Virus record (IMG/VR): IMGVR_UViG_2648501186_000011
Location: 1-19,270 of that record
Direction: 5' to 3' (one strand)
Length of the DNA stretch: 19,270 nt
Source of the DNA: a virus
Taxonomy: Duplodnaviria; Heunggongvirae; Uroviricota; Caudoviricetes
Shown here: positions 1 to 14,076 of the stretch, in pieces
Layout of the letters: each line of letters begins with the position of its first letter
How positions within the stretch are numbered: position 1 is the first letter of the stretch
Translations under genes and position numbers: made by a program
The notes under the pieces: model-generated
Databases searched by the model: none
Seen by the model: only the letters and a program-made list of their open reading frames with translations
Told to the model about the DNA's origin: nothing

Positions 1-960
1 TCCACCAGACGCATAACGGAAAGTAAATCCGCGACCGTGCGCTTTGCCGGCAGAATGAGGAACGTTAAGAGTTAGATCCATGAGTCCATCTTGACCATTG
101 GTACGGAAAGCACCAAAGTAGTTAAGATCTCTCGCTGTCTGGTCTTCCAAATAGTTAGCTGTTTTGGTTAACAGATACCCACCATGCTTAGTATTGGTAT
201 TCTTCTTGATGTAAGCAGCATCGGCACTACCTTCAATAGAATCAATTCGCTGATTAGCTGCGGCAATTGCGGCATCAGTAGAAGATTTATTCTGGTCTAC
301 CTTGTTGTTAATTGCTGTATGGTTGCTATTAACTGTCCCCGTAAGATTGGTGATCTTCGTGTCGGCATCGCGTTTATTATTTGCTACGGTCGTTTCTATG
401 GATGATTTATTTGCTGCGATAGTATTCGTTAAGTTAGTAACGTTGGTATTAGTCTGATCAACTCGTGCATTAATATCTGTCTTGTTCTTGTTAATTGTTG
501 CGTTGATAGTATCGCGGGTTGAAGTAATAGTCTGATTCAGTTCAGTCTTAGCAGCCGCCAGAGCGTTAGCCGCTTCGGTTTTATTGTTACCTACTGTGGT
601 AGTCAAAGCATCAATTCGTTTGTTGGCTGCGGTGTCGCCAGCAGTGATTGAAGCATTGAGAGCATCACGGGTAGAAGTGATAGTCTGATTCAGTTCAGCT
701 TTAGCACTAGCCAGATTATTAGCGGCTTCTTGTTTGTTGGAAGCAATAACACGGTCAGTGCTAGTTTTGTTATTGTCTACTTTCGTATTCAGTTCAGCGT
801 GTTTTTCTGGAGAAACACTAATTTGGACTACGTTATTATTTTTGTCTTTGGTGTAAATCACATGATCCGCCAACTGTAAGGCGATCTCACCCTGTGATAA
901 TTGTTCCGGCGTTGGTTTTTTACCAGCCGTTTGTGTGCGTTTAAATTGGATCGACTGCAT
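1..960 (-). CDS. Tail-fibre-like protein, N-terminal 320 codons (3' end runs off the window)
   Basis: Absent from the ORF track because there is no stop inside the window. Manual minus-strand translation from ATG (plus 958-960) stays open for 320 codons to base 1: MQSIQFKRTQTAGKKPTPEQLSQGEIALQLADHVIYTKDKNNNVVQISVSPEKHAELNTK... SD AGGTGA 4 nt upstream. The N-terminus resembles the conserved start of many phage tail-fibre proteins; the body is Asn/Thr/Ala-rich and repetitive. Confidence 0.6.
   Translation of the reverse strand, partial: MQSIQFKRTQTAGKKPTPEQLSQGEIALQLADHVIYTKDKNNNVVQISVSPEKHAELNTKVDNNKTSTDRVIASNKQEAANNLASAKAELNQTITSTRDALNASITAGDTAANKRIDALTTTVGNNKTEAANALAAAKTELNQTITSTRDTINATINKNKTDINARVDQTNTNVTNLTNTIAANKSSIETTVANNKRDADTKITNLTGTVNSNHTAINNKVDQNKSSTDAAIAAANQRIDSIEGSADAAYIKKNTNTKHGGYLLTKTANYLEDQTARDLNYFGAFRTNGQDGLMDLTLNVPHSAGKAHGRGFTFRYASGG
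511..740. repeat. Imperfect ~152-bp tandem repeat inside the tail-fibre gene
   Basis: Plus 511-590 and 663-740 align at roughly 80% identity by eye (shared core tagtctgattcagttcag). In the protein this gives two copies of AKxELNQTITSTRDxxNAxI about 51 residues apart. Confidence 0.7.
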
Positions 961-6944: not shown

Positions 6945-8870
6945 TTAGAAGTTATTAACCCAGCTATTACGACGCACAGGACGCGCCATAGGACGACGAT
7001 TAGGCTTATTGTGAGGGATTGGCTTAGTTTCCTGTTTTTGCTCGTCAGAATGCGATTTAGGAGCTTCTACGGCGGTTTCTGTTTCACGGTTCAGCTTTTC
7101 TTTCAGTGCAATGAGTTTATCCCATGACATTTTTGAAAGAACATAGCGAGAAGCAGCCAGACAATACACAAAACAGTCGAGGCATTCGTTCCTCTGCGAT
7201 CCGGGATTTTTCACCCAACGTGTTCCGGTAGCGGTGCGCTTGATGGACTCACTAAGAAGCTGATCGAGATAGTCATCAGGAACGGTGTGTGATATCTCTA
7301 AGCCAATATGCGGATTATCCTTCAAGTTGCGTGTTAATAGCTCACGAACAGCGGTTTTACCGACGTTTACACCCAACATAAGCAATTCGTGACCACCCGT
7401 GGTAGTTGGCTTAACCGGAATCAGTGGAGCGTTACCGGAGGAACTCCCTTTAATGGCATGAAGATTTTTCCATTTGGTGCAAATGCGGTAGCCAGCTTGT
7501 GTAAATTTACCGTTCGAAGTATCAAGGAAACTAGCCAGAACAGGAACACGCTGGCCTGATACCGTGGTAAACCTGCTTTTCTGGAAGTTGATTAGCTTAT
7601 CCCATACAGGTGATTCGTATCTCTCACAGTTATAATCTCGGAAGACACGGTGATCGAGGATGTAAATCTTATCTTTCGCGATGCCTAGCATAGTTGACTC
7701 GACGCGATCCAACTGCTGGTCCACGCCAAATGTGGCGAAAATAACATCATCTGGGATATTTTCTACACAAACTTCGGTTTTCAGTTGTTCCAGTTCGTTG
7801 ACTTCTACCGCTGTTTCTGCGTCATCGTACACAGTGCCGAGAACTGTATTGTAAAAACTTTGTAAATCAAAGGTTTGCCACGCTTGCGAGAAGTCAGAAA
7901 CACATGATTTGATAGAGCTAAAAGGTGAATACAGACGGCTGATCCAGAATCCTGCTACATCACTTTCACGGGTAGCTCTCCATTCTCCTTGTGCAACCGC
8001 TCTAATGCGATCCCCTTCTGACCAATCACTCTGGCAATGAGGGCAAACATAACGGGCGCTTTCAACACATGGCAGATTGCGACCATCCTGATTTTTCCAC
8101 TCGAACTTAACATTTTCCCACTCGATCACCTGGTGTTTCCCGCAATGCGGACAAGGAACAAAGAATTTACGCTGATCACTTGATAACCATTGTTGATTAA
8201 TCGGTCCCAGCTTAGTGGTCGGGGTACTGGAAACGATAATTCTTGCTTCATCCCCGAAAGTGGTTGCGCGGTTAGCCGCAAGTGCAATCGGATCGCCCTC
8301 TTCACTAGCACTGGCAGCATCACATTCATCAAGCAGAATCAACGGGCTGGTTTTTGAACGCAAGGTTGATGGGCTAGTAAGCGATACCATGTAAAGAAAA
8401 TGATTAGTCTTAAGCTGAATCTGGCTATTGTTATTAACAGCGTTGCGATCATTCTTGTCGGTGATTGCTTCGCGTAATGCCGGACATGCTTCAATGGCTG
8501 GTCGGATCTTCCCGCTTAGGTACTGAGCGGTTTCCTTCGTGGTTGCTTGGCCTATGATGATATTGCTGGGATCGTTAGCTATCTTATTGAATAATATACC
8601 ATTAAGGATGGAAGTTTTGCCGATCTGGGCACTTGTACAAAAAATGTACTTTTTCTTATTCTCTAAGAAAGGAGCATCAATCATGCCTTTCTGAAAGCTG
8701 GTTAATTTAATTTTAGCGCCAGCTTGTGGTCCATCCACTAGGATCATGTTTTCCTCGCACCATTCAGATGGTAAACGCTTAATTGGCGGTCGGATATGTT
8801 TTGATACTTCGTTAAAAATTCGCTTGAGTTTAAATTTATTTGAGAGTTTTTTCACCGTGATTATCCTCAT
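6945..8870 (-). CDS. Terminase large subunit, lambda gpA family (641 aa)
   Basis: Similar in length to lambda gpA as I recall it. Walker A-like [10 protein letters not shown], Walker B-like [11 protein letters not shown], a Cys pair [13 protein letters not shown], and a C-terminal [16 protein letters not shown] that resembles the lambda gpA C-terminus (from memory). No SD before the ATG, and an in-frame stop 18 nt upstream excludes a longer N-terminus. Confidence 0.85.
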
Positions 8871-10567: not shown

Positions 10568-10593
10568 CAATAAAAGCCCCATATTTCAGGGGC
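10568..10593 (-). terminator. Intergenic hairpin with U-tract between the Rha gene and the 214-aa gene
   Basis: Minus-strand RNA GCCCC-UGAAAUAU-GGGGC followed by UUUUAUUGAGGA, immediately before the SD of the next gene; more likely an attenuator than a full stop. Confidence 0.5.
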
Positions 10594-10607: not shown

Positions 10608-11480
10608 TTAAATTCCAAAGTATTCCAGCGATCCGGCGTTCTTACGAATCAGTGCGGCAGTATTATTGACGATTGCACGAGCATTGTTAGGCTGCGGTAA
10701 TTTCAAAGTTGCTCGTTGTTCTTCTTCAATCAATCCCAATTTAACCAGCACAGGTAAACAGTCAGTTGTGAACTCAAGCTGACCATGTGCTGATTGTCGA
10801 GCGTACATGTAAGCAGGAGGAAGAACATCATAGCCGTTAGGCTTACCAGAAGCATCCAGACGACGCTCAATGTGTTTAGCCTCACATAACCCTTTCAGAA
10901 TGCGCTGTACCTTGCCAGAGCCTCGTTTTTCGCCCAATAAGCGGGTTAAGCTGTGTGCGTCAATGGCACGGCGAACATGGAGATCAACTAATTGTTGATT
11001 CTCGTGAAGCAATTGTTCTTTTTCTTCTTCAAGTTTAACCGCTTCGCGCATCCAGTCGAGCTTAGTCATCTTGCTTGCGTCTGGGAACGGATTAGCTTCT
11101 TTGTTTGCCAATTCTGTTAGTAAACGTGCGTTTTCCTCTTTCAGAATCTTCCATTCTTTAATTACACGATTACGAATCGGTGTGCTATATCCAGTGACAA
11201 GAGTCATGCAAAGTTCTTCGTTCAAATGGCATACCGGATCTTTAACAACAATACCTAAGCCATTGATTTTCTCCACAAGACCAAAATTGGACTCCTGCGG
11301 GATACCCAATTCTTTGTACATCACGCGAATGTCACGCAAAACATGTTTATGTTTCTTTCCGGTAAACTCGGCGATCTGGAAAGATGACATAGTTAATTCT
11401 TTTTCTACAGAGTCGTTTGCAGCAACCAGAGACACGGAAGCAGTTTTAACAGCAGTATTCATAGTAGTAACAGTATTCAT
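10608..11480 (-). CDS. Rha-family phage regulatory protein / antirepressor-like (290 aa)
   Basis: N-terminal FQIAEFTGKKHKHVLRDIRVMYKELGI matches the HxxVLRDI signature I associate with the Rha family. The start is ambiguous between M1 (11480, SD AAGGGG 10 nt upstream) and M7 because of an 18-bp tandem duplication. Confidence 0.65.
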   Translation of the reverse strand: MNTVTTMNTAVKTASVSLVAANDSVEKELTMSSFQIAEFTGKKHKHVLRDIRVMYKELGIPQESNFGLVEKINGLGIVVKDPVCHLNEELCMTLVTGYSTPIRNRVIKEWKILKEENARLLTELANKEANPFPDASKMTKLDWMREAVKLEEEKEQLLHENQQLVDLHVRRAIDAHSLTRLLGEKRGSGKVQRILKGLCEAKHIERRLDASGKPNGYDVLPPAYMYARQSAHGQLEFTTDCLPVLVKLGLIEEEQRATLKLPQPNNARAIVNNTAALIRKNAGSLEYFGI

Positions 11481-11522
11481 AGTAGTAATTCCCCTTTCGG
11501 TTTAGTGATATTGATCCTCCTA

Positions 11523-11554
11523 GTTCCGGCATCACCACCGGAACATTTTTATTT
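11523..11554 (+). terminator. Palindromic hairpin with plus-strand U-tract
   Basis: GTTCCGG-catcacca-CCGGAAC followed by ATTTTTATTT on the plus strand. Oriented to stop plus-strand (antisense) transcription entering the minus-strand operon. Confidence 0.45.
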
Positions 11555-11957: not shown

Positions 11958-11986
11958 ATCATAAAAAAGTTTGAAGATATTGTCAA
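11958..11986 (-). promoter_or_regulatory. Sigma70-like promoter: TTGACA, 17-nt spacer, TATGAT
   Basis: Read on the minus strand: -35 at plus 11981-11986, -10 at plus 11958-11963. The -35 overlaps the palindrome at 11980-12000. Confidence 0.6.
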
Positions 11987-12564: not shown

Positions 12565-12882
12565 GAAAAGAGTGATCTGGTAGAGTCCAAAACTGGTCTG
12601 TACTTGAAAGGTGATTGGATTCAGTCGGGCTAAAGCCCTCCTTCATAGATTTTGATTAAATCATCACCAAAACGAAGAAGTATCTTTAGAATATAAGAAT
12701 CTTTCTTTTGAAGAAATAATAATAATCAAACAAGATGGACGCTCCCTGAGCGTCTGCGAAGCATATCTAATTCCTTCCAGTATCATCAAAGTGATCTAGA
12801 ATCAGTTTGTAATCATTATCTTCAAAGTGATTGTAATATCTTTATCTTGAAAGTGATTATAACTACCTTCTTCAAAGTGATC
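12565..12882. repeat. Direct-repeat family (A/T)TCTTSAAAGTGAT, four good and two degenerate copies
   Basis: Cores at 12787-12795, 12823-12831, 12849-12857 and 12873-12881 spaced 24-36 bp; degenerate copies near 12565-12577 and 12603-12616. Confidence 0.7.
12738..12754. other. Perfect palindrome GACGCTC-cct-GAGCGTC
   Basis: 7-bp inverted repeat with a 3-nt spacer in non-coding DNA. Confidence 0.4.
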
Positions 12883-13074: not shown

Positions 13075-13166
13075 TTGTACATCCTTGTACATCGTAGTAC
13101 ATGTGTTGTACATCCTTGTACATCCTTGTACACGTCACGTACATAGATGTACATCCTTGTACATCT
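13075..13166. repeat. Helically phased array of nine TTGTACATCC-type repeats
   Basis: GTACA begins at 13077, 13087, 13097, 13108, 13118, 13128, 13139, 13149 and 13159, a 10-11 bp period, so every copy is on one face of the helix. Confidence 0.8.
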
Positions 13167-13249
13167 AGGTTAAAAACCAATCAAAAATAGCCATAAAATC
13201 ACCATTTTGAGGGTGTATTTGCTCAATATTTCATCGTGTTTTTGTGATT

Positions 13250-13322
13250 CTGTACAGCAAATCTGTGTCTTGTACACCTTGTACATCTAATACATGTCTT
13301 GTACACCTTGTACATCTAATAC
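13250..13322. repeat. Second TGTACA cluster with two ~28-bp direct repeats
   Basis: gtcttgtacaccttgtacatctaatac occurs twice (about 13267-13293 and 13296-13322). GTACA at 13252, 13272, 13281, 13301 and 13310. Confidence 0.75.
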
Positions 13323-13495
13323 CGGGGAATAGCCCCCCTAATACCGGGGGATTTGTGGATACTAATACCGGGGAAAAAAAACCTAATACCGGGGGATTTT
13401 TATGTGGATGAATGATGGCCTAATCCGGGGGATTCTCTTACAGGACGGTTATCATTTACCCCCTAATACCGGGGAAATTAACCTAATCCGGGGGA
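13316..13495. repeat. Seven iteron-like direct repeats CTAAT(A)CCGGGG(G)A with DnaA-box-like motifs
   Basis: Copies start at 13316, 13338, 13362, 13383, 13420, 13463 and 13483, mostly 20-24 bp apart. TGTGGATAc (13353-13361) and TGTGGATGA (13403-13411) resemble the DnaA box TGTGGATAA. An AT-rich stretch follows at 13540-13640. Confidence 0.75.
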
Positions 13496-13643
13496 TTTTT
13501 GCTTCCAAAACGGGGATATCGCGGGGAAACCCTTAAATTCATTCAAATATTTTGATAGAAAATTCTTGTATATTATTTAACCAAAAAATCATCAAAAATC
13601 GCTGTAGCTTAATGATTTAAAAGGAATTTTCAAAAGGTCACCG

Positions 13644-13652
13644 TGCTATAAT
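13644..13652 (+). promoter_or_regulatory. Possible extended -10 promoter element (TGcTATAAT)
   Basis: TATAAT at 13647-13652 with TG at 13644-13645; only a weak -35 (TTTTCA region). Confidence 0.35.
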
Positions 13653-13732
13653 AGGTTATAAAGGTTGATAATCATTATTCGCCATTTTCACACAAAAATT
13701 TTGATAGTCTTTTCTCGCTTAGGTCAAGGGTA

Positions 13733-13761
13733 TTGACATCTGTCAAGGATTATTTTATGCT
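13733..13761 (+). promoter_or_regulatory. Sigma70-like promoter TTGACA, 17-nt spacer, TATGCT, with overlapping palindrome
   Basis: -35 at 13733-13738, -10 at 13756-13761. The palindrome TTGACA-tc-TGTCAA (13733-13746) recalls the 11980-12000 operator-like site. Confidence 0.5.
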
Positions 13762-13942
13762 TTTTCTCGTTGGTAGGGGTTGAAATTTTCAAAACAATCC
13801 CCATATAGATGATAAGCAAGATTTTCTCGCTACTAAATACATGTGAGCGATGATTATGACTCACTGACCTGAAAAGCTGAAACAGCATAAAATTCTAAAA
13901 AATGCGGTTTTCAGTTTTTCAAAAAGGGGTACAGGAGTCAGA

Positions 13943-13984
13943 ATGATTAAAAAATCGCCAGATAATATTCTGTCTATAGCGTAA
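13943..13984 (+). other. 13-codon mini-ORF (MIKKSPDNILSIA) with a strong SD
   Basis: AGGAG (13932-13936) 6 nt before the ATG at 13943; stop at 13982-13984. It is followed about 35 nt later by the terminator hairpin at 14021-14041, a leader-peptide-like arrangement. Confidence 0.35.
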
Positions 13985-14020
13985 AACTAAGCGCATTACA
14001 GAATAATATAAATATCATCG

Positions 14021-14041
14021 AGAGCGGTTAACGCTCTTTTT
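14021..14041 (+). terminator. Intrinsic terminator/attenuator upstream of the first rightward gene
   Basis: AGAGCG-GUUAA-CGCUCU followed by UUUUU, 20 nt upstream of the SD for the 14077 gene. Confidence 0.6.
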
Positions 14042-14076
14042 AATAAGAAAGATTTGTCTCTTAAGGGGAAGAAACT

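What the first reader, a model, noticed from the sequence alone, without database searches (positions are those of the whole stretch)
11445..11480. 18-bp tandem duplication at the start of the Rha gene
The sequence ACTACTATGAATACTG occurs twice in tandem, giving MNTVTTMNTAV with two in-frame ATGs and leaving the SD 10 nt from the first and 28 nt from the second. It may be a recent slippage event that tunes translation initiation.
Basis: seen in the sequence. Interest (0 to 1): 0.25.

Follow-up and report, generated by a model that had tools for sequence, protein, structure and literature searches.

The report
Variable 18-bp repeat at Rha start
The start of a prophage regulator gene carries a perfect 18-base tandem duplication that includes the start codon; related E. 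coli prophages carry one, two or three copies, so it is an ordinary, probably near-neutral slippage polymorphism and not a regulatory device.

Summary
On the minus strand, TTACTACTATGAATACTG occurs twice head to tail at 11453-11488, 8 bases off the stated coordinates. It spans the last 8 nt of the 5' UTR and the first 10 nt of the Rha-family gene (10608-11480), giving MNTVTTMNTAV.

It is not an assembly artefact: the exact 290-aa product is indexed in 113 blocks of public assemblies. It is also not private to this genome. Of 260 distinct relatives, 225 have two Met six codons apart and 23 have one.

Slippage is supported:
- A 1-copy allele has flanks 100% identical to the window.
- 3-copy alleles occur in two backgrounds.
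- Other start-codon duplications (12-nt unit, or another register) occur at the same spot.
- Distant relatives have a single ATG.

"Tunes translation initiation" is not supported:
- The unit carries its own 8-nt spacer, so the distance from the SD-like GGGG to ATG1 stays at 9-10 nt in all 31 loci.
- Predicted RBS opening energy is 5.3, 5.0 and 5.7 kcal/mol for 1, 2 and 3 copies.
- The extra residues fall in a tail (residues 1-26) that AlphaFold2 models with low confidence, ahead of the Rha domain.

Verdict: an in-frame mini-VNTR, probably near neutral, of low interest.

The parts
11453..11488 (-). Perfect 18-bp x 2 tandem repeat (unit TTACTACTATGAATACTG on the gene strand). Copy 1 is 11488-11471 and copy 2 is 11470-11453.
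   Evidence: TRF, 100% matches, score 72; exact-match search finds only these two adjacent copies in the window.
11478..11480 (-). ATG1, the SD-proximal start codon; the most likely initiation codon.
   Evidence: Sequence. The distance from GGGGAA to the first ATG is 7-8 nt in all 31 related loci, whatever the number of ATGs.
11460..11462 (-). ATG2, an in-frame Met7 codon created by the duplication, with no SD of its own (28 nt from GGGG).
   Evidence: Sequence; translation.
11489..11497 (-). Shine-Dalgarno-like AAAGGGGAA.
   Evidence: Sequence; AAGGGGAA is conserved in the 31 related loci tabulated.
10608..11480 (-). Rha-family regulator gene, 290 aa. It has an N-terminal tail with no confident structure (residues 1-26), a Rha DNA-binding domain (residues 31-114), a long helical linker and a C-terminal domain.
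   Evidence: Pfam PF09669, E = 5e-12, 46.7 bits against a cut-off of 29.9; PHROGs anti-repressor/Rha families; AlphaFold2 model with pLDDT below 50 for residues 1-26.
11523..11544 (.). Conserved 7-9 bp GC-rich hairpin in the intergenic leader. On the + strand it is followed by ATTTTTATTT, so it looks like a terminator for antisense transcription. It marks the upstream edge of the conserved 5' block.
   Evidence: Terminator scan; RNA folds, where it is the only stable structure; the stem is conserved and the loop varies in relatives.
11958..11986 (-). Sigma-70 promoter-like site (TTGACA-17-TATGAT, 11 of 12), upstream of the 110-aa gene that precedes Rha. Probably the promoter of the unit made of the 110-aa gene and Rha.
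   Evidence: Consensus scan only.
10576..10593 (-). Terminator-like hairpin plus T-run just after the Rha stop codon.
   Evidence: Consensus scan only.

Best explanation
The feature is an in-frame mini-VNTR made by replication slippage (or unequal recombination) between short ACT-rich direct repeats at the 5' end of a prophage Rha-family regulator gene. The 18-nt unit consists of the 8-nt SD-to-ATG spacer plus ATGAATACTG. Each added copy therefore recreates the same ribosome-binding context for the first ATG and adds six residues (MNTVTT) to an N-terminal tail with no confident predicted structure, ahead of the DNA-binding domain. Translation most likely starts at ATG1 in every allele. Because unit lengths are multiples of three and the tail tolerates length changes, alleles with 1, 2 or 3 copies all persist in E. 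coli prophage populations with little or no functional consequence. Shown here: the repeat, the copy-number polymorphism with identical flanks, the invariant SD-ATG1 spacing, the low-confidence tail and the unchanged predicted accessibility. Inferred: the slippage mechanism, initiation at ATG1 and near-neutrality.
For: - The repeat is perfect: 18 bp x 2.
- The exact 290-aa product is indexed in 113 blocks of assemblies, including complete chromosomes.
- The 1-copy allele L007 has flanks 100% identical to the window over 308 nt upstream and 400 nt downstream.
- 3-copy alleles occur in two different backgrounds, L014 and L018.
- Other duplications hit the same spot: a perfect 12-nt unit (L030/L031, MNTTMNT), a mixed 18 + 12 form (L028/L029), and a different register (L024/L025, ATGAATACTGTTAAAACT | ATGAATACTGCTGTTAAAACT). 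All observed units are multiples of 3.
- One-Met members sit inside 6 of the 10 90%-identity clusters examined and are common (P0137 on 24 contigs, P0233 on 42, P0123 on 10), so both states are viable.
- Census: 225 two-Met, 23 one-Met, 1 three-Met and 1 with 4-codon spacing among 260 distinct proteins.
- The more distant relatives L032 and L033 have a single ATG, so the duplication is derived.
- The distance from GGGGAA to the first ATG is 7-8 nt in all 31 loci.
- RNA folds show no structure in the RBS/ATG region (z about 0). Opening energy of -20..+15 is 5.3, 5.0 and 5.7 kcal/mol for 1, 2 and 3 copies.
- The AlphaFold2 model gives pLDDT below 50 and no secondary structure for residues 1-26. 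The Pfam Rha domain starts at residue 31.
Against: - Two-Met alleles form about 90% of distinct sequences.
- Met7 is retained in every E. coli-type two-copy allele although codons 4-6 vary (VTT, VTA, VTV, VKT, ISV, VIA, VTN).
- At least two or three differently phased duplications all include the ATG.
These points could reflect selection for a second start codon rather than neutrality. The sequences are not independent samples, so this cannot be tested statistically here. No expression, read-level or N-terminal data were available. The predicted-accessibility argument is thermodynamic only.
Confidence: 0.78

Rival explanations
1. The second (and third) ATG is selected. Tandem in-frame start codons in an unstructured, A/U-rich leader would give either two N-terminal isoforms (290 and 284 aa) or a backup/standby start that raises or buffers Rha synthesis. 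Copy number would then act as a heritable expression dial.
For: The two-Met state is the majority (225 of 260). Met7 is retained while neighbouring codons vary. Differently phased duplications (18-nt, 12-nt and an 18/21-nt register) all include the ATG. AUG2 and AUG3 are predicted to be as accessible as AUG1 (P unpaired 0.72-0.74).
Against: ATG2 lies 28 nt from the only SD-like element and has no purine-rich motif upstream. One-copy alleles are frequent and recur in many backbones. The more distant relatives have one ATG. Predicted opening energy at ATG1 is essentially unchanged. The extra residues lie in a low-confidence tail. Duplications that did not include the ATG in frame would disrupt spacing or frame and be removed, so the pattern may be survivorship.
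Confidence: 0.12
2. The repeat acts at the DNA or RNA level. It would be either a pair of direct-repeat binding sites (an operator) for Rha or another regulator, or the target of an antisense RNA that ends at the + strand terminator just upstream, as with P22 sar/ant or P1 c4/ant.
For: A terminator-like hairpin with a T-run on the + strand sits 35 nt upstream of the repeat, oriented antisense to Rha. It is conserved in relatives, with the stem kept and the loop variable. PHROGs place the protein with anti-repressor families.
Against: No sigma-70-like promoter was found on the + strand anywhere between 10500 and 12224. No Rfam family hits the window. The 18-mer, and even its 10-nt core, does not recur significantly elsewhere in the window. 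Copy number and spacer sequence vary freely among relatives, which a specific operator or pairing target would not tolerate.
Confidence: 0.05
3. The duplication is an assembly or sequencing artefact.
For: Nothing beyond the general possibility. Short tandem repeats are occasionally mis-assembled.
Against: The identical 2-copy protein is indexed in 113 blocks of the collection from NCBI and Logan assemblies, including complete chromosomes. Six independent loci show the same DNA. A 36-bp repeat is much shorter than a read.
Confidence: 0.01

Closest known systems
Bacterial VNTR / in-frame coding tandem-repeat polymorphism (the kind of locus used in MLVA typing)
   Same: Perfect head-to-tail repeat units. 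Copy number differs (1, 2 or 3) between strains with otherwise identical flanks. Unit length is a multiple of 3, so the reading frame is kept. The most plausible mechanism is replication slippage.
   Different: Very low copy number. The unit straddles the 5' UTR and the start codon, so each copy adds another in-frame ATG. It lies in a prophage regulator gene rather than a surface protein.
Simple-sequence contingency loci (phase variation by repeat-number change)
   Same: A repeat tract at the 5' end of a gene whose copy number changes by slippage.
   Different: Contingency loci switch expression on and off by frameshift or by changing promoter spacing. Here the unit is 18 nt (in frame) and carries its own spacer, so neither the frame nor the SD-ATG1 distance changes.
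Dual-start motifs (e.g. the lambda S holin/antiholin Met1-Lys2-Met3)
   Same: Two in-frame Met codons near the 5' end that could give products differing by a few N-terminal residues.
   Different: In dual-start genes both starts are within reach of one RBS and are regulated by an RNA structure. Here ATG2 is 18 nt downstream, 28 nt from the SD-like element, with no structure, and many relatives have only one ATG.
Rha family phage regulatory proteins (Pfam PF09669; phi80 rha)
   Same: The gene product has the Rha DNA-binding domain and sits in a temperate-phage regulatory/late-proximal position.
   Different: It has a family-specific 26-30 residue N-terminal tail and a C-terminal domain without a Pfam match. 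The prophage lineage has no close characterised relative; its large terminase subunit (TerL) has its best phage hit at 46% identity.

Membership tests
Rha family regulator (PF09669), for the gene that holds the repeat | Match to the Phage_pRha profile above the gathering threshold | tested here: met
   46.7 bits against a cut-off of 29.9, E = 5e-12, residues 31-114 covering profile positions 1-90 of 91. PHROGs Ant/Rha families, E down to 1e-17.
VNTR / slippage-generated tandem-repeat polymorphism | Head-to-tail copies of one unit with high identity | tested here: met
   18 bp x 2.0, 100% identity.
VNTR / slippage-generated tandem-repeat polymorphism | Copy number differs among otherwise near-identical alleles | tested here: met
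   1 copy in L007, with flanks 100% identical to the window. 3 copies in L014 and L018. One-Met and two-Met members occur inside the same 90% clusters.
Phase-variable contingency locus | A copy-number change shifts the reading frame or alters promoter/RBS spacing, so expression switches | tested here: not met
   Units of 18 and 12 nt are in frame. The distance from GGGGAA to the first ATG is constant at 7-8 nt in 31 loci.
Dual-start gene (two functional initiation codons) | Each start is served by a ribosome-binding site at a functional distance | tested here: not met
   ATG2 is 28 nt from the SD-like element and has no purine-rich motif upstream. Actual initiation is not testable with these tools.
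Antisense-RNA control of an antirepressor-like gene (P22 sar, P1 c4) | An antisense promoter plus terminator flanking the RBS, or a match to the known RNA families | tested here: not met
   The terminator-like hairpin is present, but there is no promoter-like site on the + strand and no Rfam hit.
Conserved upstream ORF / leader peptide (MPELGG..., ATG at 11532) | The reading frame and peptide are conserved among relatives | tested here: not met
   The uORF is out of frame with Rha in the window and fused in frame in P0016, P0041, P0053 and P0209. It has no SD, and its ATG lies inside the hairpin.

The most novel reading that the evidence does not exclude
Prophages of this lineage might be selected to keep two or more tandem, in-frame start codons on their Rha-type regulator. 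Slippage-driven copy number (1-3) would then act as a heritable dial on Rha dosage or on the ratio of N-terminal isoforms, and through it on the timing of lytic or late gene expression. That would be a phage 'contingency' element that works without frameshifting.
Probability: 0.08. Interest if true: 0.45.

Novelty: new member of a known kind. Interest (0 to 1): 0.13.

Why it matters
It matters mainly for annotation. The longer 290-aa call from ATG1 is probably right, and length differences of 6 or 12 residues between near-identical Rha proteins of E. coli prophages are repeat-number variants, not errors or different genes. The locus could serve as a small typing marker for this prophage lineage. 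If copy number did change Rha output, it would be a simple in-frame tuning device for a phage regulator, but nothing found here supports that.

Tried and rejected
- Antisense sRNA (P22 sar-like): the + strand terminator exists, but there is no promoter-like site and no Rfam hit. Unsupported.
- Upstream ORF MPELGG...: the frame is not conserved among alleles. Rejected.
- Structured leader or riboswitch: only the upstream hairpin is stable, and z-scores are about 0. Rejected.
- Operator repeats: the motif recurs nowhere else in the window. Rejected.
- Antisense ORF 11071-11505 (+), 144 aa, TTG start: not called in any of the related assemblies. Ignored.
- Megablast of the gene and of the whole window against the phage collection: no usable relative, only a tail-fibre tip.
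- Genome-contig scan for the leader: 0 hits, because there is one genome per species. The viral and metagenome scans gave 4 and 9 loci, one of them (L016) a chance match.
- Literature searches found nothing specific to this repeat or lineage.
- M31 (start of the Rha domain) as the true start: no SD-like sequence upstream, and residues 10-30 are conserved at the protein level. Considered unlikely.

Full report
**The observation**

The gene lies on the minus strand, in ORF 10608-11480 (290 aa). Read on that strand, the 5' end is ...AAAGGGGAA TTACTACTATGAATACTG TTACTACTATGAATACTG CTGTTAAAACT....
- Tandem Repeats Finder reports an 18-bp unit, 2.0 copies, 100% identity, at 11453-11488.
- With up to three mismatches the 18-mer is expected 0.02 times in shuffles and is found only at these two adjacent places.
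- The only error is in the coordinates. The repeat block is 11453-11488, not 11445-11480, and the unit is 18 nt, not 16: 8 nt of untranslated spacer plus ATGAATACTG.

**What the gene is**

- The product matches Pfam Phage_pRha (PF09669) at residues 31-114, with 46.7 bits against a cut-off of 29.9. It also matches PHROGs anti-repressor/Rha families.
- An AlphaFold2 model built on 31 homologues gives pLDDT below 50 and no secondary structure for residues 1-26. Confident structure begins at about residue 31. The duplication therefore lies in a tail with no confident predicted structure.
- Consensus scans place a strong sigma-70-like site (TTGACA-17-TATGAT) upstream of the preceding 110-aa gene, and a terminator-like hairpin just after the Rha stop codon. 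This suggests a two-gene unit.
- The surrounding element is an E. coli prophage. Exact copies of the protein lie next to a GpA-type large terminase subunit (TerL) in E. coli chromosomes.
- The lineage has no close characterised relative. Megablast of the window against phage records finds only a tail-fibre tip, and the best TerL match is 46% identical.

**It is neither an artefact nor private to this genome**

- The exact 290-aa protein is indexed in 113 blocks of the assembly collection, including complete chromosomes. Six loci show the same DNA, one of them with a single mismatch in the UTR copy.
- Among 260 distinct relatives (120 cluster representatives plus members of ten clusters), 225 have two Met six codons apart. 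The forms are MNTVTT 118, VTA 35, VTV 25, VKT about 28, ISV 10 and VIA 5.
- Of the rest, 23 have one Met, one has a 4-codon spacing, one has three Met, and nine are truncated.
- The two-Met leader is also found on proteins whose DNA-binding module is different and has no precomputed Pfam hit (P0047, P0081).

**Evidence for slippage and ongoing copy-number change**

- L007 carries one copy. Its flanks are 100% identical to the window over 308 nt upstream and 400 nt downstream, so the 18-bp indel is the only difference.
- L014, from the complete chromosome of E. coli CFSAN061761, carries three perfect copies.
- L018, from a food metagenome, carries three copies in a different UTR background. L023 has the same background with two copies.
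- One-Met members occur inside 6 of the 10 90%-identity clusters examined. They are not rare: P0137 is on 24 contigs, P0233 on 42 and P0123 on 10.
- The same spot carries other duplications that also include the ATG:
  - a perfect 12-nt unit (ACTACTATGAAT x 2, giving MNTTMNTAVK; L030/L031);
  - a mixed 18 + 12 form (MNTVTNMNTTMNT; L028/L029);
  - a duplication in a different register (ATGAATACTGTTAAAACT | ATGAATACTGCTGTTAAAACT, giving MNTVKTMNTAVKT; L024/L025).
- In some lineages the two copies have diverged. L008/L012 have UTR CTTAATT and spacer ATTTCTGTA; L009 has UTR TTTAATT.
- The more distant relatives L032 and L033 have a single ATG.
- The simplest history is a single start ancestrally, then a duplication old enough to have spread through the mosaic E. 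coli clade and to have decayed in places. Alleles whose copies are still perfect, such as this window's, continue to gain and lose units.

**Does it tune initiation?**

- The unit carries its own 8-nt spacer. In all 31 loci the first ATG sits 7-8 nt after GGGGAA, whatever the number of ATGs.
- ATG2 and ATG3 have no SD-like sequence upstream.
- RNA folding of the 1-, 2- and 3-copy leaders shows only the upstream hairpin as a stable structure, with z-scores near 0.
- The ensemble energy needed to open -20..+15 around ATG1 is 5.3, 5.0 and 5.7 kcal/mol. This predicts at most a marginal effect.
- All observed indels are multiples of three, which fits translation from ATG1.
- I therefore infer that ATG1 is the start, that each extra unit adds MNTVTT to a tail with no confident predicted structure, and that the polymorphism is near neutral.

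**What remains open**

- Three things could reflect selection for a second start: the dominance of two-Met alleles, the invariance of Met7 while codons 4-6 vary, and the recurrence of ATG-containing duplications.
- The sample is phylogenetically non-independent. Survivorship also explains part of the pattern, because duplications that broke spacing or frame would be lost. I give this rival about 0.12.
- An antisense-RNA or operator reading is weak, at about 0.05. A + strand terminator-like hairpin lies just upstream (11523-11544), and its stem is conserved in relatives. However, no + strand promoter, no Rfam family and no recurrence of the motif was found.
- The upstream ORF MPELGG... is not conserved in frame and is rejected.

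**Verdict**

This is a real, perfectly repeated 18-bp duplication enclosing the start codon. It is one allele of a low-copy, in-frame VNTR that is widespread in an uncharacterised E. coli prophage lineage. The slippage idea is right. 'Recent in this genome' and 'tunes translation initiation' are not supported. The finding is ordinary and of low interest. Its practical value is for annotation (start-codon choice, and 6-residue length variants) and as a possible typing marker.

Noticed in passing
window 11523-11544 (plus the T-run to about 11554 on the + strand): A GC-rich hairpin between the 110-aa gene and Rha is followed by ATTTTTATTT only on the + strand, so it looks like a terminator for transcription antisense to Rha. 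Relatives keep the stem while the loop varies (TGGTGATG, TGATGCTG, TTGAGATG). L026/L027 carry a different GC-rich sequence, possibly another hairpin (not folded), at the same place. No + strand promoter was found, so its role is unknown; insulation and an RNA processing or stability element are both possible.
   Followed up: partly
window about 11519-11527 (minus strand CTAGGAGGA): A strong AGGAGG motif is conserved (GGAGG in most relatives) about 37 nt upstream of ATG1, with no canonical start codon behind it. It could be a ribosome standby site or part of a protein-binding site (ATCAAT follows it).
   Followed up: no
window 13075-13316 and 13317-13395: There is a dense array of TTGTACA(T/C)(C/G) repeats: 10 exact copies in 240 bp and 12 in the whole window, against 0.65 expected for the window. 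Four copies of CTAATACCGGGG follow, in a stretch of roughly 0.9 kb (13155-14076) with only short ORFs (44-55 aa). This looks like iterons or operators of an origin or regulatory region.
   Followed up: partly
window 12807-12881: Three copies of a roughly 26-bp repeat (TTATCTTCAAAGTGAT...) lie just upstream of the iteron region.
   Followed up: no
window 1-177: The first 165-177 bases are 98.8% identical to the distal long-tail-fibre gene of T4-like E. coli phages (ELT4, vB_EcoM_PTE-Eco09) and 82-89% identical to RB49-like phages. The rest of the window has no near match in the phage collection. This suggests a receptor-binding tip exchanged between a temperate prophage and virulent myoviruses.
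   Followed up: partly
window 6945-8870 (-) and the whole window: The prophage lineage is uncharacterised. The GpA-type large terminase subunit (TerL) has its best phage hit at only 46% identity (Escherichia phage DCP80). Most neighbouring proteins (110, 155, 214, 201, 371 and 363 aa) have no PHROGs hit, and those tested (110, 155 and 214 aa) have no Pfam hit. The leader region is present in 44 of 5426 complete E. coli genomes.
   Followed up: partly
Rha homologues P0047, P0054, P0068, P0081, P0100; loci L030/L031: The same leader and MNT... N-terminus and the same C-terminal domain are joined to an alternative middle module (APTFFASPVAANEDYSDVRMTL...) with no precomputed Pfam hit. This looks like module swapping at a conserved 5' junction.
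   Followed up: no
codons 10-13 of the Rha gene (window about 11440-11452) in relatives: A second small indel hot spot lies just downstream of the repeat. Variants include NTAVKTAS, NTAKTAS, NTVKTAS and NTKTAS (3-nt steps), and P0042, P0098, P0118 and P0130 carry an insertion of about 17-23 residues (AATVSFDASLTATKKEWQI...).
   Followed up: no
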